From assembly GCA_044892505.1 (NCBI GenBank), contig CM097882.1, positions 13,888,001 to 13,952,000 of the forward strand: DNA of 64,000 bases, read 5' to 3'. Shown here one piece after another: positions 4,733 through 60,696 of this stretch. Under the pieces are notes generated by a model. The model saw only the letters and a list, made by a program, of their open reading frames with translations, had not been told where the DNA came from and searched no databases. The position numbers and the translations under genes were made by a program. Numbering within the stretch: the first letter of the stretch is position 1; every line of letters starts with the position of its first letter. This DNA comes from Schmidtea nova. Taxonomy: Eukaryota.

Positions 4733-4852
4733 AGTTTCACAGCACCTCGTATTCCCAGGCGGTCACCCATCCAAGTACTAACGAGGCCTTAACCTGCTTA
4801 ACTTCCGAGATCGAACGACATCGGTTGAATTCAGACTCGTTTAGTTGTTGTT
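4733..4852 (-). rRNA. 5S rRNA: 5S rRNA gene; nt ~19-120 well conserved, 5' ~18 nt replaced or overlapped by the retroelement ORF end
   Basis: Minus strand reads CTGAATTCAACCGATGTCGTTCGATCTCGGAAGTTAAGCAGGTTAAGGCCTCGTTAGTACTTGGATGGGTGACCGCCTGGGAATACGAGGTGCTGTGAAAC, followed by Pol III terminator T-runs. A and C boxes are recognisable. Confidence 0.92.
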
Positions 4853-9200: not shown

Positions 9201-9466
9201 TGCGCAGATATTACTCTGTCTGGCATTCGAAAAATGGTTTCGCAAAGATTTGCCCGTAAGATTTCTATTTGAAAGCATTTTATTGGAGCAAATTTAGGGT
9301 CATTGATATGACATTCAAGATAGTTATCAATGTCATCATCAGTAAACCATATTTTAGGGTCACGCAATATATTTGTGATTTTAGATGGTTTAAATTTTTT
9401 GGGAAATGTGCTGTCTGCATCAGTCTCTGTTGAGATTGGGGCAGATATTGAGACTGGTGCAGGCAC
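6242..9466 (-). pseudogene. NeSL-like ORF2: Ulp1/C48 protease domain(s) + reverse transcriptase, cut by in-frame TAG
   Basis: RT motifs as above. TAG at 6244-6242 is followed in frame by DLLGWQKLKAY. Confidence 0.92.
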
Positions 9467-9472
9467 ACAACT

Positions 9473-11866: not shown

Positions 11867-11870
11867 TTTT

Positions 11871-12822
11871 GAAAGTGCAAGAAAACACATGTTATTTCCA
11901 AACGAAAAAGAAAGAGTACTTTCAATAATGGTTAACAGAGTTATCGAAGGAAGTTACGGAGGAAATTACAACTTTGATGTGTTATTATCAAAAGAATACT
12001 TTAAAAAAGTAGCATATAAAGTACTATATAGCATATGGGGATACTTTGCAGTCCTTGGAAACATGTTTTCTACAATCTTAGGTATATATTATACGGTTGC
12101 ATTACTAAAAATGATATGTTCTTCTCTAGTATCACTGAGACAGCTAAAACAAGTATTTGGAAATTCATATAAATTATTAGCATGTTTGTGCCCATTTATA
12201 GCTAAATATCTTATTACGGCGAAACACGACAAGGAAATACGTTTAATAAAAGTCCAAAGGAATGAAGAAAGGCAATTATTGGTAGATGATGAAAACGATG
12301 AGGAAATAATTAAAGCGCATATATCACATGAAGGAAATGTACCACAACAAGGACTATATGAAAACCAAAGAGAACAACTAAAAGAGCTACAAGAAAATAT
12401 AGAAATCAAAATTCCTAGAGAAAACAAGAATTGTCACTGTGAACCTAAAAAGATATATGGTTGTTATAGCTTAGAAGTCGAAACAATGGAACGATTAGAT
12501 GCAGCAAACGAAGCAAGACCAAGACTTAAAATAATTATAAACAATATAATCATAAATGCATTAGTAGATACAGGAGCAGCAACATCCTTAATTAGAGAAG
12601 ATCAACTGACAGATGATCAGAAAAGAAATATTATGAGCACAACGGATAAAGTAGTATCGTTATCAGCACATTGTATTCCACTAAAGGGAGACATAGAACT
12701 AATAGTCGAAACACCAGAACAGGTAATAAACCACATATTTAAAGTGGTGCAAGAATGTAATAGCATATGTATATTGGGAATCGATATACTCAACAAGTTA
12801 GAAAATTGCATTATAGATTTAA
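11871..12822 (+). repeat. 952-bp direct repeat, right copy
   Basis: Matches 2848-3799. Shares 4 bp (GAAA) of microhomology with the end of the insert. Confidence 0.95.
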
Positions 12823-13388
12823 CAGATAATACGATAAAGAGAAAAGCAATTAAACATAAATCCAAGTTCACAGAAGTTGTTGCATTAGAAGCATTTGAAT
12901 TGGAATATGAATGCGATCATATTATTCCCTTAAAAGTTAACATCAAAAGTGAGGACACTTTTATTTTTGAGCCAGAAACGGCAATTATACAAAATCAGAA
13001 TATAATGCTAACCAATGAATGCGTAATTCCGAGAAAGGGAATAATACCATTGAGAATAGCAAATTATGAAAAAAGTAATGTTAAAATACACAAAGGTACG
13101 AAATTGGGAAAATTATTCAAAGGTGAATTAGAAAAAACGTACGAAGTTAGTGAGATAAGTGTGATGAATGATAACGGCAAGAAAGTAGTCGAACCTAGTA
13201 AGATAAATAATATAAAATCATATGACAAAGTAAAAATTAATAATGAATACTTAACAATAACACAACAAGCACAACTACAAACATTGATAGATAAATATAG
13301 TGATGTTTTTGCAAAACACGAATTTGATCTAGGAGATACCGATATAATCAAACATGTAATAGATACAGGTAATGCGAGACCAATATAA
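11889..13388 (+). pseudogene. Element A: duplicated glycoprotein tail + retropepsin protease + post-protease linker
   Basis: DTGA. Ends at an in-frame TAA that is followed by QRPYSVPY...WASPIVPVKKKDG. Confidence 0.9.
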
Positions 13389-16300
13389 CAAAGACCATAC
13401 AGCGTACCATACAAGTTAAGAGAGGAAATAAAACGACAAATCAAAGACCTAAACGATGCAGGTGTAATAAAACAGAGTTTTTCACAGTGGGCATCACCCA
13501 TTGTACCCGTTAAAAAGAAAGACGGAGAAATAAGAATGTGCATTGACTATCGTAAATTAAATGATGTAACAGTAAAAGATTCATACCCATTCCCAAAAGC
13601 ACAAGAGCAATACGATAAACTTAGGGATGCTAAGTATTTTTCAGTTATTGACGCAAATAAGGGATATATGCAAATTCAAATGGAGGAAGGGGATGCGGAA
13701 AAAACAGCATTTGTTATCGAGGATGGTTTATATGAGTACACACGATTACCTTTCGGGTTAACTAACGCACCAGCTACATTTCAGCGACTAATGAACACAA
13801 TATTAGTAAATGTACAACATTGCGCAGTTTATATGGATGATATACTAATATCATCAAAAACATTTGAGGAACACTTAAAAGATATAACAAATGTACTCGA
13901 GAGACTAAGAAAAGCAAAAATTAAAATTAAACCAACTAAGTGTAAATGGGCAGAACCTTCGGCGTTATTTCTAGGGCATATAGTTACAGTAGAAGGGATA
14001 AAACCAAATCCAGAAAAAATAGAAGTTGTAAAGAAATTCCCAATACCAAAAACAGTACAACAAGTACAAGGGTTTTTAGGTCTAACAGGGTACTATCGTA
14101 AATTCATACAAGATTATGCAAAGATAGCATCACCGATAATAGAACTAACAAAGGGAATTAGAACAAAAGGAGAATGCAAAGATGTGTTAATAGTACAAGA
14201 AATTAACAACAAAGTTAACAAGATACAAAAGAAGTGGACAAAGGAACACCAAGAAGCATTCAATAAACTAAAAGAAAGATTGATAACAGCACCAGTGTTA
14301 AGATACCCAGATTTCGAAAAACAGTTTATAGTAATGACGGATGCCAGCGGGAAAGCCGTAGGAGCAGTCTTGGGCCAAGAAGAAGAGAAAGGGAAAGATT
14401 ACGTAATAGCATATGCCAGTAAAACATTAAAAGGAGCACAGCTGAGGTATTCAACAATAGAAAAAGAATGTTACGTAATAGTATTCGCCCTAAAACAATT
14501 CAAACCATACATATATGGGACTGAAGTGATAATAAGAACTGACCATAAACCATTAGAAGGTTTATGGAAACATAAAGATACATCAAGTAGATTACTTAAA
14601 TGGGCAATGAAAATACAAGACATGCACCTAAAGATTATATATAAACCAGGTAGAATAAATAAAAACGCAGATGCACTATCAAGAATACCAGAATTAGGAG
14701 CACTTGAAATATTTGCACTGGTAGCAGAAAAGCCAATCGATATATATGAGGAACAGATGAAAGACCCAGAGAACAGTAAAATAAGGAATGAAATCAGAAA
14801 AGAAAACAATTCAAAGTATAAAATATCAAAGAAATTAGTAGTAATAGAAGATTTCAATGGTAAGCAACTAATAGTAGTACCTCAGAAATTAAGACAAATA
14901 CTCCTACTACAATATCACGATGGAGCATTAGGAGGTCACTTATCATCTAGAAAGACAGCAAGTAATTTATTACAAAAATATTACTGGGAAGAATTAAAGA
15001 AAGATGTTAAGAGATGGTGTAACGCGTGTACAATATGTGCAACAAGAAAAAATACAGGTACAAAAACAAAAGCACCATTACATCCCATTCCAGCAACGAC
15101 ATCACCAATGGAACTATGTGCAATGGATTTTCTATGTAAATTACCTACTACAATTAATGGGAATAAACTAGTATATAGTAATTATTTTACTAAATGGGCA
15201 GAAGCATTTCCAACAAAAGACGAAACAGCAGAAACAGTTGCTAAATTGCTTATAGAAAAAATTATTTTCAAGATAGGCACACCCAAAAGATTATTAACAG
15301 ATAAAGGAACAAATTTTACTAGCGAATTAATAAAAAGAGTAGCTAATATTTTTAATATGCAAAAGATTAACACAACAGCGTATCACCCTCAAACTGATGG
15401 ACTAGTAAAAAGGTTTAATGGTACATTACTAAGCGGACTAGCTGTTTTTGTAGGAAAACATCAAAATGATTGGGACGAATACATAAGTCAATGCACATAC
15501 ATTCATAATATCACTCCAAACGAAACAACAGGGTATTCACCGTATTATTTAATGTTTTTAAGAGAACCAGCAACACCAATAGATACAATATTTGAACCTC
15601 GAGTATCACAATATTTAGATGCACCAGATTATGTCACACTAATGCAGGAAAAACTGCAAGAAGTGTATAAAGTAGCCAATCTAAAAGTCAAATATAGACA
15701 AGAACAGTACAAAGCCGACTACGACAAAAATAGTAAACCACACAACTTTAAAGTAGGTTATAAGGTTAGACTTATGTCACCACAAGTAGGAAAGGGAAAG
15801 ACAACAAAACTAGCAAGACCATATAAAGGTCCATATGAGGTAGTAAAAGTAATAAATGAGAATTTACACTTACAAAAACATAAAAACGAGGATCCAATAG
15901 TAGTACATGTCAACAGATGCAAGTTGGCGGAAGCCGAGGTCACGATAGATAAACCTCACAAGTATAATCTAAGATCTCATAACAAACTAATAATATCAGC
16001 TATCTTCTTAACAATCATAACATTCGTTGGCTCAACCAAAACAATAGAATTTGACAAAATATTAATAAAAATAGCAACAAACGAAGTTAGAGTATTTATC
16101 ATAAATAGAGGAGTAATTGATATATACATGCAAACAACGAATGGGAAAAATCCAAAGATGATAAAAGGAAAAGACGACAGAACAACCAACGAAATCGAAA
16201 GAGGAAGCTATATTAATTTCACAAAACTAACACCTAATACAATATACAGAATCTGCATACAGAGAAACACAGATACAACAACATGGAGATGCAAAAAAAT

Positions 16301-16769
16301 AAAAACAGAACAATTACCCAAGAATATAACAAAAAATCATAACATAACAAAAACACTCGATAGAATAAAAAGCACAACAACGACATCAGATAATATACTA
16401 AATACCACACCACATACAAACGAAATACCAACAAGCACTGAAATAGCCAAATTCCAAAAACAATACAATGCCAAAAAACAAAAACAAGAACCTATCAAAA
16501 TAAGGCAAGGAAGACCAATAGTGATACATAACTTAGAGGAACTACAAGCATTTCGTAAAGAGGATAAAAAGCCACATTGGCCTTATTATATCATCACAAC
16601 ATCAATAATAGCATTAACAATTTTAGCTTTAATAACTAGCGTACAAATTTATAAAAAGTACAAATGGAAAAGGCAGCGGTATCGGAGCCGACAGGTCAGA
16701 AATGTACCAGGGCATTTCCATTTGGGCAAATATATACCAGGTGAATATACAAAATCCACATTGGTGTAA
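13389..16769 (+). pseudogene. Element A: RT-RNase H-integrase fused to signal + FN3-like + Thr-rich stalk + TM; third integrase catalytic residue is K
   Basis: CIDYRKLN, LPFGL, YMDD, TDASG, H..ALGGH..C..C, TDKGTNF, GLVKRFN (E>K at 15408), GPY; then LIISAIFLTIITFVGS, LTPNTIYRICI, TM YYIITTSIIALTILALITSV. Confidence 0.92.
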
Positions 16770-16928
16770 TACGTTTTGGTCAATAATAATAATTAAAATC
16801 ATATATATTCGTATTTATATAGCGTATAAGGTTAAACCGACAATACGCCTTAAACAAAAAACTTTATCCTTTATTTTTAGAAAAGAATACACGAGCAAAA
16901 CAAAGCAAGTTCCAACAAACTCCGAAAA

Positions 16929-17186
16929 CCCAATCAATCTCGTGAATTCTACACACCAATCAAATCATTGCGACAACCATTCAAAAATCTCAATAAATAC
17001 AATCATCTCTTTTTTAAACTGTCACAACAAACAATCAAAAAACCCTACTAATTATCTCTATACAAAATACCCAATCAATCTCGTCGATTCTATAAACCAA
17101 TCGAATCGTTACGACAATTACCCATATATCTCAATATATTCAACTATATCTCTGTTAAACTGTCAAAACCCTATTAATCATCTCTC
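16929..17186 (+). repeat. ~141-bp diverged tandem duplication in the 3' region of element A
   Basis: CCCAATCAATCTCGT at 16929 and 17070, with similar following sequence. Confidence 0.75.
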
Positions 17187-17308
17187 AAATCAATATATCA
17201 AGAAATCAATTCGATACCAATCAAAAACAAAGATGAATCAAAATCAACCTCATTTCAATCAATCAAGAACCTACCAGAAATACACTTGTTTTATGAAACA
17301 AACTCAAC

Positions 17309-19297
17309 ATGAGTTTTTATAAAAATCTACTGAACAATATATGTACTGATGGAACCCCAATTACAATTCGCAGTTTCCCAAATCAAATATGTATCCCAAA
17401 CGACATGAAAGTCGAAATAGAAGAACGGGAAATGCATCTGATAAAATTCAATGAGGCCCGAAGAGTGAAACTCAAAGAGCTTATTGGAACCTTCGACAAA
17501 TACCAAAACGTCGACAAAGAAGTTGCCGAAAACAAAAGAATCCCTCACAGATTAATATTCCACATGACAAAAACAGAAGTTGCAATATGTCAAAATAAAA
17601 TCCCGTTAATTGTCACAAGCAACTGTTCAGCAGTTATCAAGTTAATAAGAAAAGACAGAAGCATGTCAAACGATCTCAATGAGCTGACAGTGCAGATGAA
17701 TAACCTACCATGTGTGATAGCAATCGAAGTGCTATATATCCCGACAATCCAAAATCCGTTCATAAAATTAAACCCAATACATTCAATCCTACAAATAAAT
17801 GAAGATATGATCAACCAGAAGATATCATTCACGAATCAAGAATTAACGACTGAAGAAAGGCATTCATTAACTGTAATTGTGGATATAAAAGTAGTTTAAG
17901 ATATAAACAAAAATCTCAGACCAGTGGAAATTTGTATCAGAAGCAAAAAAGGAGCAATTCTGTATAACAAGTTCATCACCCCAAGAACGAAAGTTGAAAA
18001 ATTCTACACGGAAAAAACTAAAGCTACAAAAGAAAACATAATTGGAAATGAAGACGAATATAAAGCCTTAAATGAAATTCGAAACATTCTCTATGGAAAG
18101 ATCATAGTTGGATTCAACATCATAGATAAGTTAAAACTATTGACAATAGATCTGGACAACATTATGGGCATAAGAGAAATGGCACAGGATCGATTCATGT
18201 GTTCTTTTGTAAAAAACGTGGCACCACCAAAAATAAAAATATCAAATTTGGCTTACCAGGTAATCAATTACCATAAAAGTTGGCATAAAGATAAAAAGTT
18301 AAATGATATATTGAGACAACCAGAACCATTCTCAACAAAGATCACCACAATGCTATTAAAAGTTATCTACGATATCACAGAAAATAAATGGGAAGAAGTT
18401 GTCAAATGGGATTCCGCAACACTTCTTAAAAGGAAACAAGCAAATGGAGAAGAACAACTAGAAACAATATTCGAAAACGAAACAGAGAGCGAAGCAGAAA
18501 GTGAGATAGAAAGTGAATATGAAGATGGAGAAGGCATGGAGCCGTCCCTTGGGGAATCAATAAAAACCAATCATAATAAACCAAAAAAGTCATTCATGGA
18601 AGAGCTCATGGACAGTGACGACGATGAACTCATGATCATAAAAGAAGAAATACCACTTATCGCTCCAACTAGAGGAATCAAAGCAGAACCCAAAATTCAA
18701 AATATTCTATATGAAAGAATGGACGAATGTGATATAGATGATGAATATTTCTCAGCAGATGAGAACATAGAAGAACCTTCAACCAGCAGTAACGACATCA
18801 AAATGGAAGAAGATAATGAAGAACCATCAACAAGTAATAAATACAACATAATGGAAGAGGATATCGGACAAGAACCAAACGTTGAAATGTTAGCCGACTG
18901 GACAGAACCAGAAGAATCAGATTTCATAATAGACAAAGACAAGAAATACGTCTCAGAAAAAGATCTCTGCACTCATTTTGGAAGACAAATTGAGCACGAG
19001 GAGACAATAAACCTTGCGATAAAAAATAGATTTCGAAAAACAACAATTCAAATAAAAGAGAAAAGAATTGATTTAATATTGTGTGACAAGGGTAATGAGG
19101 ACATTACTTTGACGGCCCGGGGAGGAATGTTGGATGATGAAGGTAAGCCCATCAATACATTCCTCTTATCCGAAAACTATAGTGTGGGAGGCGGCAGGTA
19201 CAGAATAAATATTTATGCAGAGCCCGTTCAAGAAGAAGCAAATATCAATCAATCTCAATACGGTAGATCAAGACAACAATATCCATTGGGCATTTAA
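17309..19297 (+). pseudogene. Accessory ORF of element A with a degenerate REXO4/ISG20-like DEDDh exonuclease domain and an acidic region; one in-frame stop at 17897
   Basis: The two ORFs share a frame. VIVDIKVV*...ILYNKFITP...ILYGKIIVGFNI..KL..L...IRE follows the ISG20/REXO4 pattern with acidic catalytic residues altered. Confidence 0.65.
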
Positions 19298-25250: not shown

Positions 25251-25485
25251 TCAAGTGACTTATCTTGTCAATTACCCGATTTTCAGGTTGTTTGTTTACG
25301 TGTGTTCATTTTATCTTTGATTATTCTGTTAAATAACAGATTTATTCGTTCCATCTAATTCGATTCATTTGTTATATAGGCGCTTTGTGGTGGTCCGGAT
25401 GATGTGTTCTCATTTTGGCTGTTTATTTGTAAGCCTTTTTATCTTTGTTAATTCCTAATAGTAGTAGGAAGTGAGCCCGCCAGAT

Positions 25486-26430
25486 ATAGGTCAAGACCCC
25501 CCCATAGAAAAAAAATTTTTTTATGTAGGTCAAATTTTTCGCTTAAGGACACTTTAAGGTCAAATTTTTCGCTTAAGGTCACTTTGAGGACACTTTAAGG
25601 TCAAAAAAGTAGGTCAAAGTCGTTTTAAGGACACTTTAAGGTGAGTTTAAGGTCAAATTTATGGTTCAAGGACACTTTAAGGACAAAAAAGTAGGTTAAG
25701 GTTGTTTTAAGGACACTATAAGGTCAAAAAGAATGCCAATTTAAGGTCACGATAAGGACAAATAAAGTAGGTCAAATATTTTTAAGGTGAATTTAAGGTT
25801 AAAATAAGTAGGTCAAATATTTTTAAGTTGCTATGACAACGAATAAGTAGGTCAACTTAATTTTTTCAAAATTTGATAGTTGCTATGACAACGAATTAAG
25901 TAGGTCAATAATAATTTTAAAAATTTTTCTATGTCAGAATTAAGTAGGTCAAATATAAAAAACTTGAAAATTTTTCTATGTCAGAAATAAGTAGGTCACG
26001 AAAAATTTTCTATTTCAGAAAAAAGTGGGTCAACTTTATTTTTCTCAAAAATATTTCTATGTCAGAAATAAGTAGGTCAACTTTATTTTTATAAAAATTT
26101 TCCTATGTCAGAATTAAATAGGTCAAATATAAAATTATTCAAAGTTATAATATATTTAAAATATTTTCTATGTCGGAATTAAGTAGGTCAATTTAAGGTC
26201 AATGTGAGGACGAATTAAGTAGGTCAATTTAAGGTCAATGTGAGGACAAATTAAGTAGGTCAATAATAATAATAATTTCTAAAATTTTTTCTATGTAAAA
26301 ATTAAGTAGATTAATAATAAATTTCGAAACTTTTCAAAGTCAGAATTAAGGGTACATTCAGGGTACTATAAGGTCAACAAAGTAGGTCAAATAGATAATT
26401 TTCTATGTCACAATTATGTAGGTCAAATAT
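25486..26430 (+). repeat. Subterminal array of AAGTAGGTCA/AAGGTCA motifs (mirrored at ~33625-34530)
   Basis: About 15 or more GTAGGTCA copies in degenerate 30-45-bp units. Confidence 0.85.
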
Positions 26431-27811
26431 AAAAACTTTAAAATTATTCTATNNNNNNNNNNNNNNNNNNNNNNNNNNNNNNNNNNNNNNNNNNNNNNNN
26501 NNNNNNNNNNNNNNNNNNNNNNNNNNNNNNNNNNNNNNNNNNNNNNNNNNNNNNNNNNNNNNNNNNNNNNNNNNNNNNNNNNNNNNNNNNNNNNNNNNNN
26601 NNNNNNNNNNNNNNNNNNNNNNNNNNNNNNNNNNNNNNNNNNNNNNNNNNNNNNNNNNNNNNNNNNNNNNNNNNNNNNNNNNNNNNNNNNNNNNNNNNNN
26701 NNNNNNNNNNNNNNNNNNNNNNNNNNNNNNNNNNNNNNNNNNNNNNNNNNNNNNNNNNNNNNNNNNNNNNNNNNNNNNNNNNNNNNNNNNNNNNNNNNNN
26801 NNNNNNNNNNNNNNNNNNNNNNNNNNNNNNNNNNNNNNNNNNNNNNNNNNNNNNNNNNNNNNNNNNNNNNNNNNNNNNNNAATATTATTGATAATAATAA
26901 TATTATTGATAATAATAATAAATAAGATTAATCATAATCATAATAATTAATAATAATAATAATATTATTTTTCTTTTTACCCTTTCATTTGTTCATTACC
27001 GATTGTAATTGTCTCATTTCTTTTTCGAAAAGTTCAATCATCTGGCACAATAGATATTCATTTTTAGACAATTCCGATATTTGCATTGATCATCGCGTGA
27101 AACTTGACTGTTGAGAATTTCAAGAATTTTCGGAACACTTTTCTGACAGCCTGAAATAATTAATTACATATGGTTGGAAATTATTGCTAAAAATTAACAA
27201 AAATTACATTTCAAGTAAAATAAAAAATCTAACTAGATAACGCTAAATAAATAATCAAGCATTTCATAGATAAAAATATGTCCTCTTTCTCTAAATTCAT
27301 CTTCACAAACTAAATATAAAGTTATTAAATTAAATAAATATGTATTATATATAAAAATAACCTGAAATGTGATTTAGTAACGATTCCATGTTAACAAGTT
27401 TTGAAACATAATATTGATTTGCCCTAGTACGCTTCACGGTAAATAGGGATAATAAATTCTTCCATAGTGAAGATATAAAAATTTATGTATAAATTATTAA
27501 ATTTGTGTATAAATTATTCAAATTTTTGCAAATAAATACAGTTTTTAAACAAATTATTTAAATTAAATTATTTAAATTAAATTATTTAAAGTTAATTAAT
27601 TAAATATTTAATTTAATTCTTTACTTAGAGAAAAGTAAATAATATTAAATAAATATTATTAAATAATATTAATAATATTAAAAGTTAATTAAGTAAATAA
27701 TATAAATTAATTTAGTTAAATCCAGATTGGTTTTAATAGTCTTCAATTCCGTCCTACTTTTATTAAAATTTTATAAAGTGTCAAATAATGAATTATTTAA
27801 ACACTATTTAA

Positions 27812-28240
27812 TTTAAATATCCAACTCTCCCCTTCTTAAGACCTTTTCCACTTCAGCCACTCGATTCTTCTTCCTTTCATACCTTCTTGCGAGTGTTTTA
27901 CTCGTTATTTGAGTCTGAAATCAAATGGTCACATGTCATTGTGGCGTTCATGTATATAAAACAGATAATGGATAATTCGGGTTCAAATTATGAAAATTAT
28001 TTTCAATGGTCAGTACAGGTATATTATTTTTATTTAATTATATTATTAATATTATTTTAGATTATCGAAAGTGAAATATGTCCCTGGGTTCAAGAAAATG
28101 GACAATGGCAAAAACTACTAGAATTGGCCGAAAATAGTAGAACTATTAGGAAAACCAAAGAAAGATTGAAAAATCTGTTGAAAATAACAATTGGACTCTG
28201 TAGTATTTATGCTATTGTAAATTTAATTCATCGAAAATAA
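27812..28240 (+). CDS. Bcl-2-like gene (BH1-like, BH2, C-terminal TM) with 42-nt intron 28019-28060; 5' end uncertain
   Basis: LFESEIKWSHVIVAFMY...WSVQ|IIESEICPWVQENGQWQKLL...ITIGLCSIYAIVNLIHRK*. The phase-0 GT-AG intron joins in frame. Confidence 0.75.
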
Positions 28241-29282
28241 ATGTATTTTTGTTTAATTGATACATGAATGAAAATATTCAATATGAGCTTTTACAGATAA
28301 AAACCATCACAAAAGATGTTCTGCTACCAATGTTCTGATATTAATGTTCTGTTAGGAAGGTTCTGATACTTGAGATTATTGATACATGAATTAAAATATT
28401 CAATATGAGCTTTTACAGATAAAAACCATCACAAAAGATGTTCTGTTACTAAGGTTCTGATACTAATGTTCTGCTAATAGGGTTCAACTACGGTGTTACT
28501 CATCACATTTTAAGTATGAATTGTTGACATAAATCACTATGATGTATATCACTCATGTCTAAAACACTTTTACTCTATATTTCATGTTATTAATGTAATA
28601 CATGAGTCATGCTCTTGTATTGCAAATGTTATGCACTTGTATTGTTTGTGACATTGCTTGTGTCATACACTTGTGATAATCAGGAACATGCATATTTCCC
28701 TTAAATATTAATCAATTTTAATTATTATTTTCAGAGTAAATTTAATACAAACTAGTAAAGAATATTGACAATTTCTATATATTTTTAACTAATCATTTAT
28801 TGATCAATGATTTTGGGTACTTCATGATGATATAAAAGGGGGTTAAGTTATTGTAAAATGATTGAAAAAATGATAAAACGACGACTATTATTGACCTGTA
28901 CATTCAATTATAGAAATCTTTACAAGTGTAAAAACCATTAATTTTCAACTAATTACTCTAATTAGTTTTTAATTAATTCAGTTTTTTAAAGATTTTTACT
29001 TGTCAACTGAGCTATTTCTATTGTTAACAGTATTTATTGAATTGTAATAAATTTACAAAGTAAATGATGTGAAACTTTTTGAGTTAATTTACATAGAAAT
29101 TTGAGACATTATTTATATCTTTTGAGCTATTTAAAAAATACAAATTAATATTAAACTCTGTAAAAGTAATAGAAAATATAAATGTACGACATAAGCATTA
29201 CTTGCGCTTATATTTAACAAGACTTTTACTAAAAATAAATACTATAAAACACTAACAAAATCGAATAAAAAATAAAAATTTA

Positions 29283-29648
29283 TCAAATAACAACAACATT
29301 TTGGGCTCTATGCCATCTCTCCAACTGGTATAGGAGCTCCTCTTTGTCTTTCATGAGCCTCCAATTTGGGCAACATTTGCAATGTGTGCAACAAATTGGC
29401 TCCAACTTTATTGGAGGCTCTGCCATGTTCCTTTTGTGTTCTGCGATCACCTCTTTTAGGTTCACGCCGCAGAACAACCATATCTTCAGATTTATGTGTT
29501 CAGGAGCCCAGAACATCATATCTTTCATCTCCTGGGGATAGAGCCTTCCCATCATATCCAGAGCGATTTGCAACAATGTTTCTAAATAATTAAAATTAAT
29601 TAAATTATATTAAAAACATTTAGGCTTACCGTCTAGAGAGCTTGACAT
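29283..29648 (-). CDS. Mirror copy of the two-exon Cys-rich gene (3 aa differences in exon 2)
   Basis: Reverse complement of 30513-30879 with T/M, P/L and Y/H changes. Confidence 0.7.
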
Positions 29649-30512
29649 GTTTTTCTATTTAACTGAATAAGTGATTCGTATATATACAAATTTGAAACAT
29701 ACACATCGACCAATCAGAAACATGCACACATATATTTTAAATTATAACGTTTAAATTTCAAATACCGCAACGTAAGATATTCATAAAATACCTCAACGTA
29801 ATAACAGTTGGTATATATCTTTCAGAATTTTATAAGTAATTCAATTTTAAACAATGAACACTATCAACAACGATTATACTGATAGCGAAATTAGTTCTCA
29901 AGTTGAATGTTCTCAAACTGAAATAGTTCACAGTACAAGTTCTCAACATGCAAGTAATTGTATATTTATTTATTTATTTTCTAAAATTATCATTACTTTT
30001 ATTAGAAAAAATTAAGACAATAACAAAAGAAAGAACTAATTTAAAGAAATAATTTTTAAACACACAAAATATTCACAGATAAGTCGATTGAGTGGTCATA
30101 GCTATTGTTCAACCCCACCATCATTAAATGCAAAACATTGTACTGTCAATGTAAAAAATACCGATAAATTGTATTATATATATATATATAGAGTATTTTA
30201 CTTATTTTAAAATATGAAGAGGTAAAATCTAACAGAAGTAAGTCTTATAATAATTATATTTCAGACCTTGTCTTTGACTCTTATGATCAGCCGATGAATT
30301 TATGTAATATTCACAATTGAATTACTTATAAAATTCTGAAAGATATATACCAACTGTTATTACGTTGAGGTATTTTATGAATATCTTACGTTGCGGTATT
30401 TGAAATTTAAACGTTATAATTTAAAATATATGTGTGCATGTTTCTGATTGGTCGATGTGTGTGTTTCAAATTTGTATATATACGAATCACTTATTCAGTT
30501 AAATAGAAAAAC

Positions 30513-30879
30513 ATGTCAAGCTCTCTAGACGGTAAGCCTAAATGTTTTTAATATAATTTAATTAATTTTAATTATTTTAGAAACATTGTTGCAAATCGCT
30601 CTGGATACGATGGGAAGGCTCTATCCCCAGGAGATGAAAGATATGATGTTCTGGGCTCCTGAACACATAAATCTGAAGATATGGTTGTTCTGCGGCGTGA
30701 ACCTAAAAGAGGTGATCGCAGAACACAAAAGGAACATGGCAGAGCCTCCAATAAAGTTGGAGCCAATTTGTTGCACACATTGCAAATGTTGCCCAAATTG
30801 GAGGCTCATGAAAGACAAAGAGGAGCTCCCATACCAGTTGGAGAGATGGTATAGAGCCCAAAATGTTGTTGTTATTTAA
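30513..30879 (+). CDS. Two-exon small Cys-rich protein (MSSSLDE|TLLQIALD...CCTHCKCCP), intron 30532-30580
   Basis: ATG exon, GTAAG donor, TTTTAG acceptor, in-frame join; ATTGG (reverse CCAAT box) upstream. Confidence 0.7.
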
Positions 30880-31920
30880 TACACTTTTATTTTTATTCGA
30901 TTTTGTTAGTGTTTTATAGTATTTATTTTTAGTAAAAGTCTTGTTAAATATAAGCGCAAGTAATGCTTATGTCGTACATTTATATTTTCTATTACTTTTA
31001 CAGAGTTTAATATTAATTTGTATTTTTTAAATAGCTCAAAAGATATAAATAATGTCTCAAATTTCTATGTAAATTAACTCAAAAAGTTTCACATCATTTA
31101 CTTTGTAAATTTATTACAATTCAATAAATACTGTTAACAATAGAAATAGCTCAGTTGACAAGTAAAAATCTTTAAAAAACTGAATTAATTAAAAACTAAT
31201 TAGAGTAATTAGTTGAAAATTAATGGTTTTTACACTTGTAAAGATTTCTATAATTGAATGTACAGGTCAATAATAGTCGTCGTTTTATCATTTTTTCAAT
31301 CATTTTACAATAACTTAACCCCCTTTTATATCATCATGAAGTACCCAAAATCATTGATCAATAAATGATTAGTTAAAAATATATAGAAATTGTCAATATT
31401 CTTTACTAGTTTGTATTAAATTTACTCTGAAAATAATAATTAAAATTGATTAATATTTAAGGGAAATATGCATGTTCCTGATTATCACAAGTGTATGACA
31501 CAAGCAATGTCACAAACAATACAAGTGCATAACATTTGCAATACAAGAGCATGACTCATGTATTACATTAATAACATGAAATATAGAGTAAAAGTGTTTT
31601 AGACATGAGTGATATACATCATAGTGATTTATGTCAACAATTCATACTTAAAATGTGATGAGTAACACCGTAGTTGAACCCTATTAGCAGAACATTAGTA
31701 TCAGAACCTTAGTAACAGAACATCTTTTGTGATGGTTTTTATCTGTAAAAGCTCATATTGAATATTTTAATTCATGTATCAATAATCTCAAGTATCAGAA
31801 CCTTCCTAACAGAACATTAATATCAGAACATTGGTAGCAGAACATCTTTTGTGATGGTTTTTATCTGTAAAAGCTCATATTGAATATTTTCATTCATGTA
31901 TCAATTAAACAAAAATACAT

Positions 31921-32349
31921 TTATTTTCGATGAATTAAATTTACAATAGCATAAATACTACAGAGTCCAATTGTTATTTTCAACAGATTTTTCAATCTTT
32001 CTTTGGTTTTCCTAATAGTTCTACTATTTTCGGCCAATTCTAGTAGTTTTTGCCATTGTCCATTTTCTTGAACCCAGGGACATATTTCACTTTCGATAAT
32101 CTAAAATAATATTAATAATATAATTAAATAAAAATAATATACATGTACTGACCATTGAAAATAATTTTCATAATTTGAACCCGAATTATCCATTATCTGT
32201 TTTATATACATGAACGCCACAATGACATGTGACCATTTGATTTCAGACTCAAATAACGAGTAAAACACTCGCAAGAAGGTATGAAAGGAAGAAGAATCGA
32301 GTGGCTGAAGTGGAAAAGGTCTTAAGAAGGGGAGAGTTGGATATTTAAA
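31921..32349 (-). CDS. Mirror copy of the Bcl-2-like gene
   Basis: Reverse complement of 27812-28240; the exon base at donor -1 is G>T. Confidence 0.72.
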
Positions 32350-35199
32350 TTAAATAGTGTTTAAATATTTCATTATTTGACACTTTATAAAATTTTAATA
32401 AAAGTAGGACGGAATTGAAGACTATTAAAACCAATCTGGATTTAACTAAATTAATTTATATTATTTACTTAATTAACTTTTAATATTATTAATATTATTT
32501 AATAATATTTATTTAATATTATTTACTTTTATCTAAGTAAAGAATTAAATTAAATTTTTAATTAATTAACTTTAAATAATTTAATTTAAATAATTTAATT
32601 TAAATAATTTGTTTAAAAACTGTATTTATTTGCAAAAATTTGAATAATTTATACACAAATTTAATAATTTATACATAAATTTTTATATCTTCACTATGGA
32701 AGAATTTATTATCCCTATTTACCGTGAAGCGTACTAGGGCAAATCAATATTATGTTTCAAAACTTGTTAACATGGAATCGTTACTAAATCACATTTCAGG
32801 TTATTTTTATATATAATACATATTTATTTACTTTAATAACTTTATATTTAGTTTGTGAAGATGAATTTAGAGAAAGAGGGCATATTTTTATCTATGAAAT
32901 GCTTGATTATTTATTTAGCGTTATCTAGTTAGATTTTTTATTTTACTTGAAATGTAATTTTTGTTAATTTTTAGCAATAATTTCCAACCATATGTAATTA
33001 ATTATTTCAGGCTGTCAGAAAAGTGTTCCGAAAATTCTTGAAATTCTCAACAGTCAAGTTTCACGCGATGATCAATGCAAATATCGGAATTGTCTAAAAA
33101 TGAATATCTATTGTGCCAGATGATTGAACTTTTCGAAAAAGAAATGAGACAATTACAATCGGTAATGAACAAATGAAAGGGTAAAAAGAAAAATAATATT
33201 ATTATTATTATTAATTATTATGATTATGATTAATCTTATTTATTATTATTATCAATAATATTATTATTATCAATAATATTNNNNNNNNNNNNNNNNNNNN
33301 NNNNNNNNNNNNNNNNNNNNNNNNNNNNNNNNNNNNNNNNNNNNNNNNNNNNNNNNNNNNNNNNNNNNNNNNNNNNNNNNNNNNNNNNNNNNNNNNNNNN
33401 NNNNNNNNNNNNNNNNNNNNNNNNNNNNNNNNNNNNNNNNNNNNNNNNNNNNNNNNNNNNNNNNNNNNNNNNNNNNNNNNNNNNNNNNNNNNNNNNNNNN
33501 NNNNNNNNNNNNNNNNNNNNNNNNNNNNNNNNNNNNNNNNNNNNNNNNNNNNNNNNNNNNNNNNNNNNNNNNNNNNNNNNNNNNNNNNNNNNNNNNNNNN
33601 ATAGAATAATTTTAAAGTTTTTATATTTGACCTACATAATTGTGACATAGAAAATTATCTATTTGACCTACTTTGTTGACCTTATAGTACCCTGAATGTA
33701 CCCTTAATTCTGACTTTGAAAAGTTTCGAAATTTATTATTAACCTACTTAATTTTTACATAGAAAAATTTTTAGAAATTATTATTATTATTGACCTACTT
33801 AATTTGTCCTCACATTGACCTTAAATTGACCTACTTAATTCGTCCTCACATTGACCTTAAATTGACCTACTTAATTCCGACATAGAAAATATTTTAAATA
33901 TATTATAACTTTGAATAATTTTATATTTGACCTATTTAATTCTGACATAGGAAAATTTTTATAAAAATAAAGTTGACCTACTTATTTCTGACATAGAAAT
34001 ATTTTTGAGAAAAATAAAGTTGACCCACTTTTTTCTGAAATAGAAAATTTTTCGTGACCTACTTATTTCTGACATAGAAAAATTTTCAAGTTTTTTATAT
34101 TTGACCTACTTAATTCTGACATAGAAAAATTTTTAAAATTATTATTGACCTACTTAATTCGTTGTCATAGCAACTATCAAATTTTGAAAAAATTAAATTG
34201 ACCTACTTATTCGTTGTCATAGCAATTTAAAAATATTTGACCTACTTTTTTCTGACATAGAAAAAATTTGAAAATTATATTTGACCTACTTATTTTAACC
34301 TTAAATTCACCTTAAAAATATTTGACCTACTTTATTTGTCCTTATCGTGACCTTAAATTGTCATTCTTTTTGACCTTATAGTGTCCTTAAAACGACCTTG
34401 ACCTACTCTTTTGACCTTAAAGTGTCCTCAAAGTGACCTTAAGCGAAAAGTTTGACCTTAAAGTGTCCTTAATCGAAAAATTTGACCTACATAAAAAATT
34501 TTTTTCTATGGGGGGGGTCTTGACCTATATCTGGCGGGCTCACTTCCTACTACTCCTAATCTATTTTTATTTAGATTCAAAGTAATTTTATCGGTTCAAT
34601 TTATTTTTGTTTTGTTTCCAATTTAATATTGGAATGAACCCTAATTTGTTGCCCAACCAAAATAAATTCAATAAAAACTAGTAAAAATATAAAATATATC
34701 ATTCTTGAGGTTATTTTCATGAGACATATAAAAAATTCGAATAGGGATTTCATATAAATTCAACATCAAGTAAAATTTCATACTTGTTATAATTTTATAG
34801 TTTTTAATATTTCATCTTTAAAATTTCCAATTCTTTTTAAAAATGTTCCAAAATGTTTTTAAAACACTGCCTTTCCATTTCTATATAGGGTTTTTCTCAA
34901 CCTAAAAATGCTTTAAAAACATTTTTTATTATTTTAATCAATTTATTGGGTTATGGAGTTGTTGGTGAAATTGAAAAGTTACCAATTAATTCTCTGAATC
35001 CAAAGCGTGCTTTATTGATCAATAAAATGACTATTAACAACAGGAAAAATTACACTGGTACAACCAATCAATAATATGAAATAATTATACAGTGATTATT
35101 ACGACACTTAGAAGAATAGCACTAGTGTAGAATATCTCCGTCTAACGATCACTAGTTACTGATTTAAATTCAACAATGAATAAAAAAAACTAATTTTTC

Positions 35200-35700: not shown

Positions 35701-37679
35701 AAACATCACTTCATTTACTCTGCTTATGTTCCCCCAATCATTTTATTTATTTGTGAGAATATTTAATTTATGATTAATGATAACTTTCAGCAATAAAAAA
35801 TAAGTTTACTTACAATGACAATCATGAATTTGCTTTGAAACTTCCTTATTTTATTAGTTTCTATTAGATTTAATTTTTTTGCATCTATTAAAACAAAATC
35901 TATAATAAATTTGTTTATTTAAAAACTATCCAAAAATTTCTGATTTCCTAATTAGAAGTGTATTGTGTCATATCTAGAGCAATACTTTCCTCCCTTAGAA
36001 TTTATGGTCGAGTAATTATGATGTGAGTAAACTAGATTTAGCGGGAAATTTGGTGTAAACTATTTATGCAGAAATTTGCTGTGTGTAAACCAATTTTGGT
36101 GTTAATTTAGGGTGTGTACAAGAACTTTTGAAGGAATATAGTGTGTGTAAACGAAAATACGCATGAATTTTAAGTACGTGTAAACAAACGTTGACTTTAA
36201 TTTAGCGTGTTTTAACAAAGTGGTTCAAAAATATTTTGTTTAAATAATGTTTACTAGTATTTCAAGGTAACATAATAAATAACTAAGACAATTTTGTGAT
36301 AATATTTATAAGGCATAACGTAATTTCATCATAAACTACCTTCTTCATATATTGTTTTCATTTTATCATCGCAATAATTTCCATATGCATGACTTTGATT
36401 ATTTTCAATCCTATTTTTTATCGTCAGCATTTGTTAAAACAACTTTCGACTGTTGGAAACTAAATAATTGATGATTTTGTGTACCAATTCTACATTGTGG
36501 TACTATAAACCTTCCGTTGATATTATAACTATCTAGAAGCGACTGATTTTTGATGTCAGTACCCTTCAATGTTATTACTTTAGCTTTCATGGATTATTTC
36601 TTTCATAACAAACTATAACATTTTCATCTTAAAAAGACTAATTTTATATATCTATCACTTACTTTCACACCTGAACTGTTAATAACTGAATCCAATTTCC
36701 TGAAAAAGAGTCTATGATCTTAAGGATAAAAGACCTATCCAACAGATTGTCATTAACCAGTAATGATGTATCTAATTTAATATTTTTACATTCCGACAAA
36801 ATACTATTGGTATTTCAAGGAACAATAATTGTTTCGCAACTGAATTGTGCTCGATATTTTGCTAACTCTAGATATTTTTAGTGACACATCCGAAGTTTCA
36901 ATAAATCCAAATTTCATTAATCTATATAGTTGGATCTATCTTAACAAATAGATTCTTTATTTAACAAGGCATCTATTAAATTATCATCAATCTTAACACT
37001 TCTTCGAAACGTTGGGTTGATAATATATCTAATCATCTTCAGTTCTGTATTACATAGCCTCAAATTCATTGTTCTTCAAAATTTTGAATGTTTTCTCTAC
37101 ACATTGTTGGGTTCTTGGGTTGTTGGTGAAATGGTAAAAGTTACCAATCAAATATCTGACTCCAAACGTGCCTTTTAATTGACCTCAATAACAATTAACA
37201 CTGGAAACTTTATTGAATAAAACAAATATTGTCTTTAACACTTAATTGACCAAAATCAACAGACCAACAATTGATTATACGGTGCTTTTTACGACACGAT
37301 GGTGAAGAATAGCACTTTGTATAATCTTGGCTCGAACAATCACTCACTACTGAGGGGAATAACAATTGGTAATCTGGCTGGTTGTTTTCTGGGTTTGACT
37401 TGGGTTTACTGGTTGAATTTTACTCTATTAGTAATCGATGATTACGGGTTTCACTCAATTTTCTGTCACGTCCTTTATTTTCTTCTCTTTCAGTTTCGTC
37501 TGGCTTCACACAATCTTTCAATCTCTCCAATAATTTCCTATATATTTTCTTAAATCTTCTCCCAAACCTCTGATTATTATATTCTGCTCTTTAAACTTCT
37601 TTCTCCAATTCTGTCAAAACTTCTCTCTAAATTTCTCTGAAACTCCTGGCCAATTTCTTGAAATTTCTGAAAATGTCTC

Positions 37680-38420
37680 TAAATCAACCTCTGCGTTATA
37701 ACTATATGGAAGCATTTTTAATTCTAAATTCTTGTGTTCTTCTAGGAATTAAGCTATATTTGAATGAAATCAATTAAAATCTCCACACAGCAAGCTTTAA
37801 CCTAAAGTCCATTTATAGAGGTTATTGATATTTATGTACAATAACTCTGTAGTCTCATCTGATTTAACATAATGCTTGTTCACAAAAGTAAGACCACAAC
37901 GAATTCCTCCTTCATAAAAGTTAAACATCTTCATTTCTAGAATCAGTTCAATTGGTTCATATTAAGTAATAAGTGATGATATCCATGACATACCAGAAAT
38001 TCCATAAAAGTTCAATGGTTCCAATCGACTATGATCTACGGACTTGACTTGAAATTCCTGGAAGAAATCAGCCAATAGAGTTTCAAACAAATTAAGTGAT
38101 AAATTAAGTGATGTTTCTCAACCTGATTCGTCCTATATATGTTGGGGAAAAGTTATATCATTAGCAAATTGATGAGTCAATAAATTCTATTGAAATTGCA
38201 CCAATTTATACAATAAGCGATTTAAACTGTTCAATGGTAAGAGAAATATAGCTTAAATTCCAATCCAGAAAACGATTTAACCCATGTTTAAGGATATGAT
38301 GTAAATCATTACCCCTCAAATATTGAAACACGATGGACAATATTTTGTTGGTTTTTTTATTTTAGCACTAAATTGGTGCAATCTTTGACTCTTTATGTTC
38401 TTTTATCTATATCAAAATCA
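37680..38420 (-). pseudogene. Decayed Polinton-type protein-primed family-B DNA polymerase
   Basis: Motifs in order: IVFQYLRGNDLHHILK (ExoII), EFIDS, LLADFFQEF, LEPLNFYGISGMSW, IELILEMKMFNFYEGGIRCG, LLYININNLY (motif A), AEVDL. Confidence 0.8.
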
Positions 38421-39249
38421 ATAATACTCAACACAGAATAATTTCTATTGAGTGTCACAACAAATTACAATTTGTCTTTAATTCCAATTTATTGGATCGA
38501 TACAATTTACAATTCCCGATAATTTTCACTTTCTTTGGTTAATTAATTTTATTCAACGTTAAGGCAGATAATCCAAGGGGGTAATTGTCTTCTCTGGTAC
38601 GTTTAATTGAATAAAGTTTTATAATAATCGCTTCTTACCTCTCTCTTTTAACTCTCCTAAACTTTTTCTTAATGAAAGTTTAACTTAATTCTTTTTGACC
38701 AACTGCCAGCTCGTCTCTCTTCCGATCTCTTTTTACAGCATTATCGAGGAGATAATTATCTAAAATTGCTGAAACTCTTTGGGTCTAATTGGTACAATAA
38801 CAAATTAAATTTTCCATCACTCACTAGCGCCCGTGTGAGTTTTATCTTTAATTTCTTTGCGCAATTACCCGGGTTACTAACTCACTCGGCTTTCCAATGT
38901 GCTTTTATGTTTTCCTTATCACTTGAGCTTCCCTATAGCTCGGGTTTCCATTATCTAGGGCTTCCCTTTGGCTCAGGCTTTCCATTAGCTCAGGCTTCCC
39001 ATTGAACAATTAATTGATTTTTAATTAATTTGTTATTTCCCAATAACATTTCAGGACCTTTTTACGGAGTATTTATTACTATTTTTGAGTACGTCTTATG
39101 ATTTGGTGTTCAACTATACCCATTTCCTCAATCAATATTAATTTTTACTATGCGATAAATTTTAATTATTTTTTGCACTTAGTTATTTTGATATTTTCTT
39201 CATTTTTGTACTGACTTTAATAATTTCATTGATTTTCCTTGACATAATA

Positions 39250-39790
39250 CATTTATTACATGATGTACGTACAAATATATTTTCCTGTAAAATGATCGCG
39301 ATCTTTGCCTTTTTAAATTACCTTTTTCTTGCACAAGTAACAAATTGTAGATGTTTCGAATGATTGTTTTTCATCTAGAGAAAGTTGTAACATTGGCTTT
39401 TTCACTTTATTTTATGTCATATGGAAGAATAATTTTCGTTACTATAATCTTTACTTTCTTTAAAAATTGATAGTAACTTAATATTTCGGTAAAATTGTTG
39501 ATTAATAATAGCCCGGCTGAAATTGGTAAATGTTTTGAAAGTGAGTGTTATCTTTAATCAAAATTTGCATATAAGGTTGTACCTGATTGATTTCTCCAAA
39601 AACCTTTTTCTTCCTGAATCCATTCAATCAATTTTCAAATCACTTGCAACATGCCTGAATACTACAATTTGCACTTTTATGACAATTCATCAAACGATCG
39701 ATGTTAATCACTGCATTGTAGTGAAAATGTTCTTTAGGTAAATTTGTTTTCCAACTGAGACTTTCCATATATGAACTATATCTAAATGTG
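39250..39790 (-). pseudogene. Further decayed pPolB N-terminal remnants
   Basis: SSY...LPKE...NAVINI and KDRDHFTGKY resemble Polinton pPolB N-terminal/endonuclease-VII-like motifs. Confidence 0.45.
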
Positions 39791-42289
39791 GATGTTTCAT
39801 TATAACATTTACGATTTTCTCTCATATGTTTAATTTAATAGTAGCATAATATTAATTAACTTAAGTATTAATCTGTGAAATTAATATTTCATAAAACAGA
39901 ATAACTCAAAATAATAATAAGTTAAGAATATTTTTTAATAAATAATTAACATTCATTTCTATTTTCCAGATTTATAGGTCGTGAGCACTGCTCCTAATTG
40001 ATAAATACTGTAAAAATCAAATTATAGACTGCTAACTTGACATATTAATAATAAAAAGCTGATTAACATCATAACAATAAAGGTAAAATACATTAATGAC
40101 AATAATTCACTAATTTTGGCGATATATTCCCTTTCCAATTTTTTTATTGGGAAAAATCATATTTATATTTTTACATAAATTTTATGTACAATAATAAAAT
40201 AGGAAAACGCTCGATTTTATATAAATATCATCATTCATTTTAATGTAACAAAATTGGATTTTTATTTGAATAAAGAATACTTGTATTAAAATTGTTAGAT
40301 GTCGTTAAAACATCTTCATTTAAATCAGAATCGAAAATCATATCAAAAATATTTATTTAATTCAAGAATGATTTTAATCGTTGAGAATATTTAAACTAAA
40401 AACTAAAATTTGTTATTTAAAATATTTATTTAAAATTATTTTTATGAAATCTATTTATAAAATTTTAATTTAATTTATTTTTTTAAAATAAAACTTTAAA
40501 AACTAAATTTAACCATTTTCATGTAAAAACACTTTTATAAAATTTATTTATAATTATTATTCTAAAATCTATTTATATAAAATTTTAAATCATATTTATT
40601 ATTTAAAAAATGAAACATTTAAAACTTAATTTAACTATCTTAAAATACTTATTTGAAATACGTAATAAAATAACTATTTTATTATCTGTAAAATATTTTA
40701 CTCTAATTTAATTATTTAATTTTAATGTTCATTAATAATCNNNNNNNNNNNNNNNNNNNNNNNNNNNNNNNNNNNNNNNNNNNNNNNNNNNNNNNNNNNN
40801 NNNNNNNNNNNNNNNNNNNNNNNNNNNNNNNNNNNNNNNNNNNNNNNNNNNNNNNNNNNNNNNNNNNNNNAATTAAATATATATTTTATTGGAAAATTAT
40901 ATGTGTTGAATCTAAAGTAAAATAATATATATTACAAATTTCTTTTAAATAAAATTAAATATTTTGATTTTATAAACTGAAAAATAGTGTAATATTAATG
41001 GAATTTTTCCGCATTTCTTCAATCGTGTTAAACCGAAACCGGGAAAATGAGTACCGTGTAAATCGAGGACTTTGTGTATTCGACATATAAATGAAAAAAT
41101 ATTAAAATCTCATAATTCAATTATCATCATTCATTAAAAACCAGTTTACTCGTATTTTGATTTATCGGAACAGGAATATAAATATTCAAAAACTAGTGAT
41201 CTCTTCAGGTTGTGTAGAGTATTATTTGAATGTGGAATTTTATTTTTCTAATTTTTCCAAAACCATAATGAAATTTGAATAATAATTACTCAAACTTTTG
41301 TATTTAAAGAATAAACAAAACTCAACAGGTTTTTTGTTTTATCAAAGTCGTAATATAGCATGTAGATCTCGCTCAAGTAAATTTAAAATTTGTAATGAGA
41401 AACACCGAGCAAATAAATTAATGACACAACACATCAAAAATTAAATAAAACACGTTTAAAAAATAAAATGAACAAAGGCGCACCAAGTAAACATGTAAGA
41501 AACATAAAAATAAAACATTAATTGCAATAAATTAGGTACAAATTAGAAAAATTTAGATGTTTCATGGAAAATCTTTCGATTTATATAAGTATTAACGATA
41601 AAATACAAAAGAAAATTGATTTGAAGAAACTTTACGAAATTTCGTTAAATTAGTAATAACATTGTTAAAACTAATTTTTGTATATTAAAATAAATATATT
41701 TAACTCTAATAAAATTTTAGACAAAAATATTAATTTAATTTTTGACAAAATAAAAACTATTTAATTCAGAAAATCTAAAAATTCAAACATGAAAATTTTG
41801 TTTTACTGCATCAAATGAGGAAGTAAAAGATTTCACTAAATAAGCCGCATCCAAATTGAAAAACAAAATTGTTCACTAATTTGTAAATTAACTTGTAACT
41901 TGTTGATGTATTTTCTTTTATTTATTACTTATTATTATTCATTCATATCTACTGTTTATACAGGATAAACCAATAAGTTTTGTCCGCTGCTCATACTCAG
42001 CTTTCCAATGCTGTAATGACTGTATAGGTCTGCAACTTTGTGTGTCTATGCTACATATATGTTGTAAATTTGTAAAATTTAAAAAAATCACTTATTAATA
42101 ATTTTTAACATTGCTTTGATTATTAACTTTGATATGTCTTACATGGATTAAGCATTTTTAATAAATTTCTTGTTTGACTGAAATAATTTTTGTTTTCATT
42201 AGAATACGTCGATTTCAAATGAATTTCGCAAGAGAGGATATCCGCAAGTTAATCTACTACAATCGGAAATGAAATAAATTTGACACTTG

Positions 42290-60600: not shown

Positions 60601-60696
60601 AAATATATCTAAACTCATGTAAATATCCCTGTAAAAATAAAAAAGAGAAAATTTGAAAAATCATTAAACAAATTTGAATCTATAAATCTATAGAAA

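What the first reader, a model, noticed from the sequence alone, without database searches (positions are those of the whole stretch)
27812..28240. Intron-containing Bcl-2-like gene inside a Polinton-type element (missed by the ORF track)
Seen: splicing a 42-nt intron joins a BH1-like motif (LFESEIKWSHVIVAF) to BH2 (CPWVQENGQW) and a TM tail, and the gene is present in both arms. An upstream ATG is cut by TAA in both arms, so the 5' exon is unresolved; a CAG acceptor lies at 27856. Known: vBcl-2 genes are common in large DNA viruses. I do not know of one in Polintons.
Basis: partly seen in the sequence, partly recalled or inferred. Interest (0 to 1): 0.8.

Follow-up and report, generated by a model that had tools for sequence, protein, structure and literature searches.

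The report
Polinton-borne Bcl-2 gene, deleted copy
A virus-like transposon family carries hundreds of copies of a Bcl-2-type cell-death gene, likely captured from its host (probably a flatworm), likely given a new tiny intron and predicted to help infected cells survive; the two copies in this window are broken by a deletion, and Bcl-2 genes in such elements were already known.

Summary
Real gene, broken copy, partly known. The GT-AG intron (28019-28060, 42 nt) is exactly a 14-codon insertion relative to intronless homologues. The 'unresolved 5' exon' is a ~480-nt deletion in both arms of this copy; the other 38 of 40 scored places carry the missing stretch, and copies read in full have an ATG-started exon. 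The carrier (25460-34554) is a non-autonomous palindromic Polinton derivative: AGTAGT ends, 6-bp target duplication, only a polymerase remnant. An exon-2 motif occurs 525 times in the genome. dN/dS between subfamilies is 0.14. An intronless relative sits in Polintons with polymerase, integrase and ATPase. The closest non-Polinton relative in the genome is a single-copy two-exon host gene (40-45% identity), not element A's Burro-type Bcl-2 (22-32%). Bcl-2 in Polintons/adintoviruses is published (PMC8502044), as is intron-bearing Maverick cargo. New here: a candidate donor, an intron likely gained inside the element, and amplification on palindromic satellites. No RNA evidence; anti-apoptotic function untested, BH1 non-canonical.

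The parts
25454..25459 (.). left target-site duplication CCTAAT
25460..29846 (+). left arm of the palindromic non-autonomous Polinton derivative (family A); begins AGTAGTAG
27893..27896 (+). deletion junction (4-nt microhomology); ~480 nt present in other copies, with the start codon and 5' part of exon 1, are absent
27893..28018 (+). remnant of exon 1 of the Bcl-2-like gene (BH1 region)
28019..28060 (+). 42-nt phase-0 GT-AG intron (splicing inferred from homologues, no RNA)
28061..28240 (+). exon 2: BH2 and hydrophobic C-terminal tail
29283..29555 (-). 90-aa Cys/His ORF, homologous to an ORF of integrase-bearing Polintons of this genome; dN/dS 0.08 between subfamilies
29854..30037 (+). truncated small gene with a second putative short intron (29954-30005, 52 nt; 48-52 nt in relatives)
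30049..30311 (+). remnant of a Polinton DNA polymerase gene in the central spacer (60% identity over 45 aa to the long polymerase ORF of L059, E 2e-12)
30315..34554 (-). right arm; ends CTACTACT
30610..30879 (+). mirror copy of the Cys/His ORF
31921..32268 (-). mirror copy of the deleted Bcl-2-like gene (exon 2 31921-32100, intron 32101-32142, exon-1 remnant to 32268)
34555..34560 (.). right target-site duplication CCTAAT

Best explanation
This is a 5'-deleted copy of a two-exon Bcl-2-family gene carried in both arms of a high-copy, non-autonomous palindromic Polinton derivative; the gene was likely captured from a host Bcl-2 paralogue, likely gained its 42-nt intron inside the element, and its intact copies are predicted to make a membrane-anchored pro-survival protein. 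Steps. (1) Shown: gene, copy number, Polinton-type ends, deletion in this copy. (2) Inferred: a Polinton took up the host gene lineage of L086; since the host intron after BH2 is missing from all Polinton versions examined, capture likely went through a spliced RNA. (3) Inferred: the A/B lineage later gained a new phase-0 intron nine codons upstream of BH2; family C has none. (4) Inferred: the 9-kb palindrome arose by copy-back of one end of a polymerase-bearing Polinton, which explains a central polymerase remnant and a private deletion present in both arms; it would be moved by polymerase and integrase supplied in trans. (5) Predicted, about 55%: the 164-aa spliced product delays apoptosis of cells in which Polintons are active. 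The window's copies lack the start codon and are likely dead.
For: Intron: a 14-column gap in all 17 alignment rows that span the site, with equal register in host L086, P0003 and vertebrate Bcl-2/Bax; GT..AG in 66 of 67 gene hits in fetched loci, which partly overlap (the other was mis-parsed). Family: Pfam Bcl-2 E 6.5e-6 for an intact copy read through the intron; family C 32.3 and L086 43.5 bits, over the 31.4 cut-off; PDB best hits all Bcl-xL, E about 1e-3. Selection: A vs B 18 synonymous, 12 non-synonymous changes, dN/dS 0.14, Fisher p 5e-7; exon 2 alone 6 vs 4 codons, p about 0.005 with approximate site counts. Element: 6-bp TSD exact in 6 of 7 end pairs; 525 exact exon-2 motif matches, control 0; 150 of 150 scored exon-1 hits 97-100% identical without stops. 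Polinton link: relative C beside polymerase, integrase (rve) and A32 ATPase in L120/121, L128/129, L130/131. Donor: L086 is single-copy, has GT after BH2 and a tail exon ~4 kb away, 40% to A and 45% to C against at most 25-32% for Burro and other host paralogues.
Against: No RNA: the four runs found are genomic libraries. The intron-retaining A read-through stays under Pfam's cut-off (27.1 < 31.4); the model is modest (pLDDT 58.7) and Foldseek gave no E <= 0.001 (TM about 0.3). The tree does not prove the donor: Polinton + L086-like 76/69, Polinton monophyly 48/0, and a Polinton + Burro clade is not rejected (p-AU 0.057). BH1 has S-H where Bcl-xL has G-R and the BH3 aspartate is absent, so groove binding is uncertain. 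No autonomous element with family-A ends was found among the loci fetched. Many copies are decayed: 2 of 7 evaluable position-picked copies intact. Arm homogenisation is partial (within-copy median 0.4%, between-copy median 0.95%). dN/dS may record selection in autonomous ancestors, not on the satellites.
Confidence: 0.72

Rival explanations
1. The 42 nt are not spliced: intact copies make a shorter protein ending in the hydrophobic intron-encoded tail, without BH2.
For: The intron is in frame, reads as 13 hydrophobic residues before the TAG, and is identical in 59 of 67 hits. No junction reads exist.
Against: Exon 2 is under purifying selection; the insertion is bounded by GT/AG exactly at the alignment gap; a neighbouring gene has a similar intron of 48, 51 or 52 nt; a host gene has a ~56-nt intron. 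A/T-only DNA reads hydrophobic and changes slowly in an AT-rich genome (inference).
Confidence: 0.07
2. Direction reversed or shared viral origin: L086 is a domesticated Polinton gene, or Polinton and Burro Bcl-2 genes share one mobile ancestor.
For: Weak tree support; Polinton + Burro clade not rejected. P0003 and P0016, the L086-like proteins, come from unnamed contigs.
Against: L086 has the intron after BH2 at the same place as 4 other host paralogues (5 of 8 loci), is single-copy, and has no Polinton ends within about 10 kb. A 5-6-residue deletion between helices 5 and 6 is shared by L086 and the Polinton genes but not Burro.
Confidence: 0.12
3. The gene is a passenger on the satellites: selection acted only in autonomous ancestors and the hundreds of copies are silent hitch-hikers, or the protein has a non-apoptotic or pro-death role.
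For: Inserted copies decay near neutrally (C vs C127 dN/dS 0.82); Polintons are piRNA-silenced in S. mediterranea (PMC8532177 passages); non-canonical BH1 and BH3.
Against: Three separately amplified palindromic or long-TIR families (A, B, C) all keep the gene in both arms; loss of the BH3 aspartate argues against a Bax/Bak-type killer (PMC7022251 passage on BH3).
Confidence: 0.35

Closest known systems
Adintovirus (Polinton/Maverick) Bcl2 genes, Starrett et al. 2021, PMC8502044; UniProt A0A5H3CWZ2
   Same: Bcl-2 homologue as accessory gene of an animal Polinton (passage; 2 of 3 supplement places seen; BFVD row).
   Different: Here it has an intron, a candidate donor in the same genome, and sits on non-autonomous palindromes in hundreds of copies. 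'Schmidtea', 'planarian' and 'Dugesia' gave 0 hits in the one stored supplement file, which was cut when stored.
Nematode Maverick cargo genes (wasp, krma), Widen et al., 10.1101/2022.07.12.499685
   Same: Intron-bearing, host-like cargo near a terminal repeat (passages).
   Different: That paper's passages describe genes with introns taken up from the host; here the host intron is absent and a new one appears at a site empty in 8 of 8 host-like paralogues.
Burro giant Ty3/gypsy elements of planarians (review PMC6431247)
   Same: Mobile element carrying Bcl-2-like, BIR and TRAF domains (passages); such elements are in this window (173-2665).
   Different: Retroelement polyprotein domain; 22-32% identity to the Polinton genes, separate clade.
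Vertebrate Mavericks, PMC8097293
   Same: AGT-repeat ends and 6-bp TSD (passages).
   Different: No introns were seen in intact vertebrate elements; 'Bcl' does not occur in its main text.
Copy-back defective viral genomes (recalled, no call)
   Same: Long inverted arms, loss of replication and capsid genes, dependence on a helper.
   Different: Here integrated with a TSD and carrying a host-derived gene twice.

Membership tests
Bcl-2 family (PF00452) | Profile match over the curated cut-off | tested here: inconclusive
   A read through the intron 27.1 bits < 31.4; one A-type copy 31.6; relatives C 32.3 and L086 43.5.
Bcl-2 family (PF00452) | BH1 and BH2 in order, with conserved tryptophans, then a hydrophobic tail | tested here: met
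   tail hydropathy 1.7 over 19 aa.
Bcl-2 family (PF00452) | Helical-bundle fold | tested here: inconclusive
   All-helical model, pLDDT 58.7, intron retained; all 40 listed PDB rows are Bcl-2 family but E > 0.001.
Pro-survival Bcl-2 proteins | Canonical BH1 G-R pair lining the BH3 groove (motif as in Bcl-xL) | tested here: not met
   S-H in A/B, S-K in C, S-R in L086.
Pro-survival Bcl-2 proteins | Binds BH3 peptides or Bax/Bak and blocks death | not testable with these tools
   Needs an assay.
Polinton/Maverick (window element) | TIR ending in AGT repeats and 6-bp TSD | tested here: met
Polinton/Maverick (window element) | Encodes polymerase, integrase, ATPase, capsid | tested here: not met
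   Only a polymerase remnant at 30049-30311: a non-autonomous derivative.
Polinton/Maverick (family C relative) | Polymerase, integrase, ATPase, capsid genes beside the Bcl-2 gene | tested here: inconclusive
   rve and Pox_A32 pass Pfam. Polymerase, capsid and SSB labels rest on recalled motifs and gene order; Pfam, NCBIfam and PDB did not name them and the 120 listed of 170 capsid-candidate homologues are unnamed.
Spliceosomal intron | GT-AG ends at an exact insertion relative to homologues | tested here: met
Spliceosomal intron | Removed from the RNA | not testable with these tools
   No RNA run listed.

The most novel reading that the evidence does not exclude
Planarian Polintons spawn gene-bearing copy-back satellites that are kept and amplified because their doubled, host-derived Bcl-2 keeps stem or germ cells alive during transposition; with Burro retroelements doing the same independently, over 600 mobile Bcl-2 genes tune cell death in a regenerating animal, and one lineage shows intron gain inside a virus-like element.
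Probability: 0.25. Interest if true: 0.8.

Novelty: new variant of a known kind. Interest (0 to 1): 0.5.

Why it matters
It gives a traceable case of host-gene capture by a Polinton, with candidate donor, intronless carrier and intron-bearing derivative in one genome, and a candidate intron gain in an element class described as intronless in vertebrates. It also shows two unrelated mobile-element classes carrying apoptosis regulators in the same animal, which can be tested by RNA-seq and RNAi. The window's own copy is a deleted relic, and Bcl-2 in Polintons is not new.

Tried and rejected
RNA support: no RNA holder listed. Runs X1-X4 showed no joint at the intron among the 15 joints shown, 7 more not shown, but they cross a host intron unspliced and have Tn5-adapter-like ends (adapter recalled), so they are DNA and say nothing on splicing. 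Word-index homologue search with the read-through protein: 0 of 131 candidates. IMG/VR scan with family C: 0 of 21 candidates. JGI scan with P0003: 1 weak locus of 596 stretches, not followed. The ESM Atlas look-up was not obtained. Single-sequence model pLDDT 48.9, not searched. VIA-align searches never ran (queue full). Polintons next to A/B copies first looked like the autonomous parent; L030, L059, L061/063 and L076 proved or appear to be nested insertions with other ends; L052/053 and L150/151 have one family-A arm and an end of another family. Upstream ATG 27788 and CAG 27856 rejected as gene parts. Origin from element A's Bcl-2 not favoured but not formally rejected. Literature: searches listed no paper on Bcl-2-bearing planarian Polintons or palindromic gene-bearing Polinton satellites; only listings were seen for most hits, one search missed PMC8502044 because it writes 'Bcl2', and Repbase and subscription journals are not covered. 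Supplements of the bioRxiv preprint were not seen.

Full report
Observation. The motifs, the 42-nt GT-AG stretch (28019-28060), exon 2 (28061-28240) and the mirror copy are in the sequence. The two arms are 99.5% identical. The element runs from 25460 to 34554, begins AGTAGTAG, ends CTACTACT and is flanked by CCTAAT on both sides; AGT-repeat ends and 6-bp duplications are Maverick hallmarks (PMC8097293 passages). It holds no long ORF; its spacer holds a polymerase remnant at 30049-30311.

The missing 5' exon. A search of the window's genome with 27600-28400 scored 40 of 4208 candidates: only the two window arms match end to end, and the other 38 match in two pieces about 480 nt apart. In copies read in full that stretch holds an ATG and about 60 further codons in frame with BH1, giving exons of 105 and 59 codons. 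The junction has a 4-nt microhomology. The window copies are therefore deleted relics.

Is it Bcl-2, and is the intron real? An intact copy read through the intron with X scores Pfam Bcl-2 at E 6.5e-6, 27.1 bits, under the 31.4 cut-off, and hits Bcl-xL in the PDB at E about 1e-3. Intronless relatives pass the cut-off. In a 21-row alignment the 14 intron codons are a clean gap in all 17 rows that span the site. The ends are GT..AG in 66 of 67 hits in fetched loci, 54 of 67 with both exons open; these loci were mostly score-picked and partly overlap. Among 8 position-picked loci only 2 of 7 evaluable copies were intact. Between subfamilies A and B dN/dS is 0.14 (p 5e-7), and exon 2 alone shows the same trend. 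The model built on the alignment is all-helical with pLDDT 58.7; Foldseek's 40 listed PDB rows are all Bcl-2 family but none reaches E 0.001, and the seven best viral rows are viral Bcl-2 proteins, E 0.02 or worse. No RNA run was available: X1-X4 are genomic.

Carriers. A 24-nt exon-2 motif occurs 525 times, control 0. Family A (this window) has gene pairs about 4.9 kb apart; family B has other ends, pairs about 7.1 kb apart and extra small ORFs. Both are palindromes without replication genes; TSDs are exact in 6 of 7 A-type end pairs. Family C carries an intronless 150-aa relative, 39% identical to A, found at 150 of 150 scored places at 62-100% identity. It occurs in long TIRs around a polymerase ORF and in three fetched elements that also have integrase, A32-type ATPase and candidate capsid genes. 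No autonomous element with family-A ends turned up.

Origin. Of the host-like Bcl-2 loci from a Pfam scan, L086 stands out: single-copy, next hit 53%, an intron after BH2 as in 4 other host paralogues, a tail exon about 4 kb away, no Polinton ends nearby, 40% identical to A and 45% to C, and sharing a 5-6-residue deletion with them. The only strong outside hit among 1.84 billion representatives is an unnamed L086-like protein (E 3e-15). Trees place Polinton and L086-like genes together at 76/69, not decisive, with Burro Bcl-2 as a separate clade; five near-duplicate or short rows were left out of the second tree, and a Polinton + Burro grouping is not rejected.

Mechanism. Inferred: capture through a spliced RNA (host intron absent), later gain of a 42-nt intron in the A/B lineage (site empty in 8 of 8 host-like loci and in C), formation of palindromes by copy-back of one end (private deletion in both arms; arms identical over 1265 nt in 4 of 11 copies, median 0.4% against 0.95% between copies), and movement by helper polymerase and integrase. 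Predicted function: a tail-anchored pro-survival protein, about 55% likely, since BH1 lacks the G-R pair and BH3 lacks its aspartate. Polintons are piRNA targets and are de-silenced during differentiation in S. mediterranea (PMC8532177 passages), so expression is plausible but unshown.

Known and new. Bcl2 and IAP homologues in adintoviruses are published (PMC8502044, passages and two supplement rows). Intron-bearing cargo is known in nematode Mavericks (preprint passages), introner insertions in dinoflagellate Polinton-like elements (PMC11957031 passages), and Bcl-2-like domains in Burro (PMC6431247 passages). Ten searches listed nothing on planarian Bcl-2 Polintons or such satellites; coverage is limited. 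The scan's own index had no matching note. Verdict: new variant of a known kind, interest 0.5.

Noticed in passing
L115/L116, L113/L114 (G000:C1:676069-690844; C1:101762086-101777124): Family C: ~15-kb elements with ~4-kb TIRs (Bcl-2, TBP-like, SSB-like, Cys/His ORF) around one long polymerase ORF, without capsid or integrase; many inverted Bcl-2 pairs ~7.4 kb apart among 150 scored hits. A replicating but capsid-less Polinton form.
   Followed up: partly
L064-L067 (G000:C2:197.50-197.66 Mb): Tandem array of about a dozen family-B palindromic units joined through their ends.
   Followed up: partly
L113:4343-4792; L051:406-873: Polintons of this genome carry a TATA-binding-protein-like gene (Pfam TBP E 3e-16).
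   Followed up: no
L081:2618-3196: An intronless 192-aa Bcl-2 gene with a canonical BH1 (best Pfam score in the genome) lies between a Polinton integrase remnant and a Polinton end: possibly a second, independent capture or a retrocopy.
   Followed up: no
window 29954-30005: Second putative short intron (48-52 nt across copies) in a small gene of the same element.
   Followed up: partly
L052/L053/L136 and L150/L151: Chimeras with a family-A Bcl-2 arm at one end and the structural module and end of another Polinton family.
   Followed up: partly
window 173-3825, 11889-19297, 51283-62525: Burro-like LTR retroelements: Bcl-2 domain fused to a viral fusion glycoprotein, TRAF, BIR, RING, ankyrin; an R2-like element interrupts the first (4841-11890).
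   Followed up: partly
window 36414-39851 (-) and 48533-49006: Degenerate polymerase gene of another Polinton and an IAP-type RING ORF.
   Followed up: no
L116:6483-7052; L103:4665-5267; window 60697-61521: A signal-peptide-like, cysteine-rich ORF near the end of some Polintons resembles by eye an ORF of the window's Burro-like element; not aligned.
   Followed up: no
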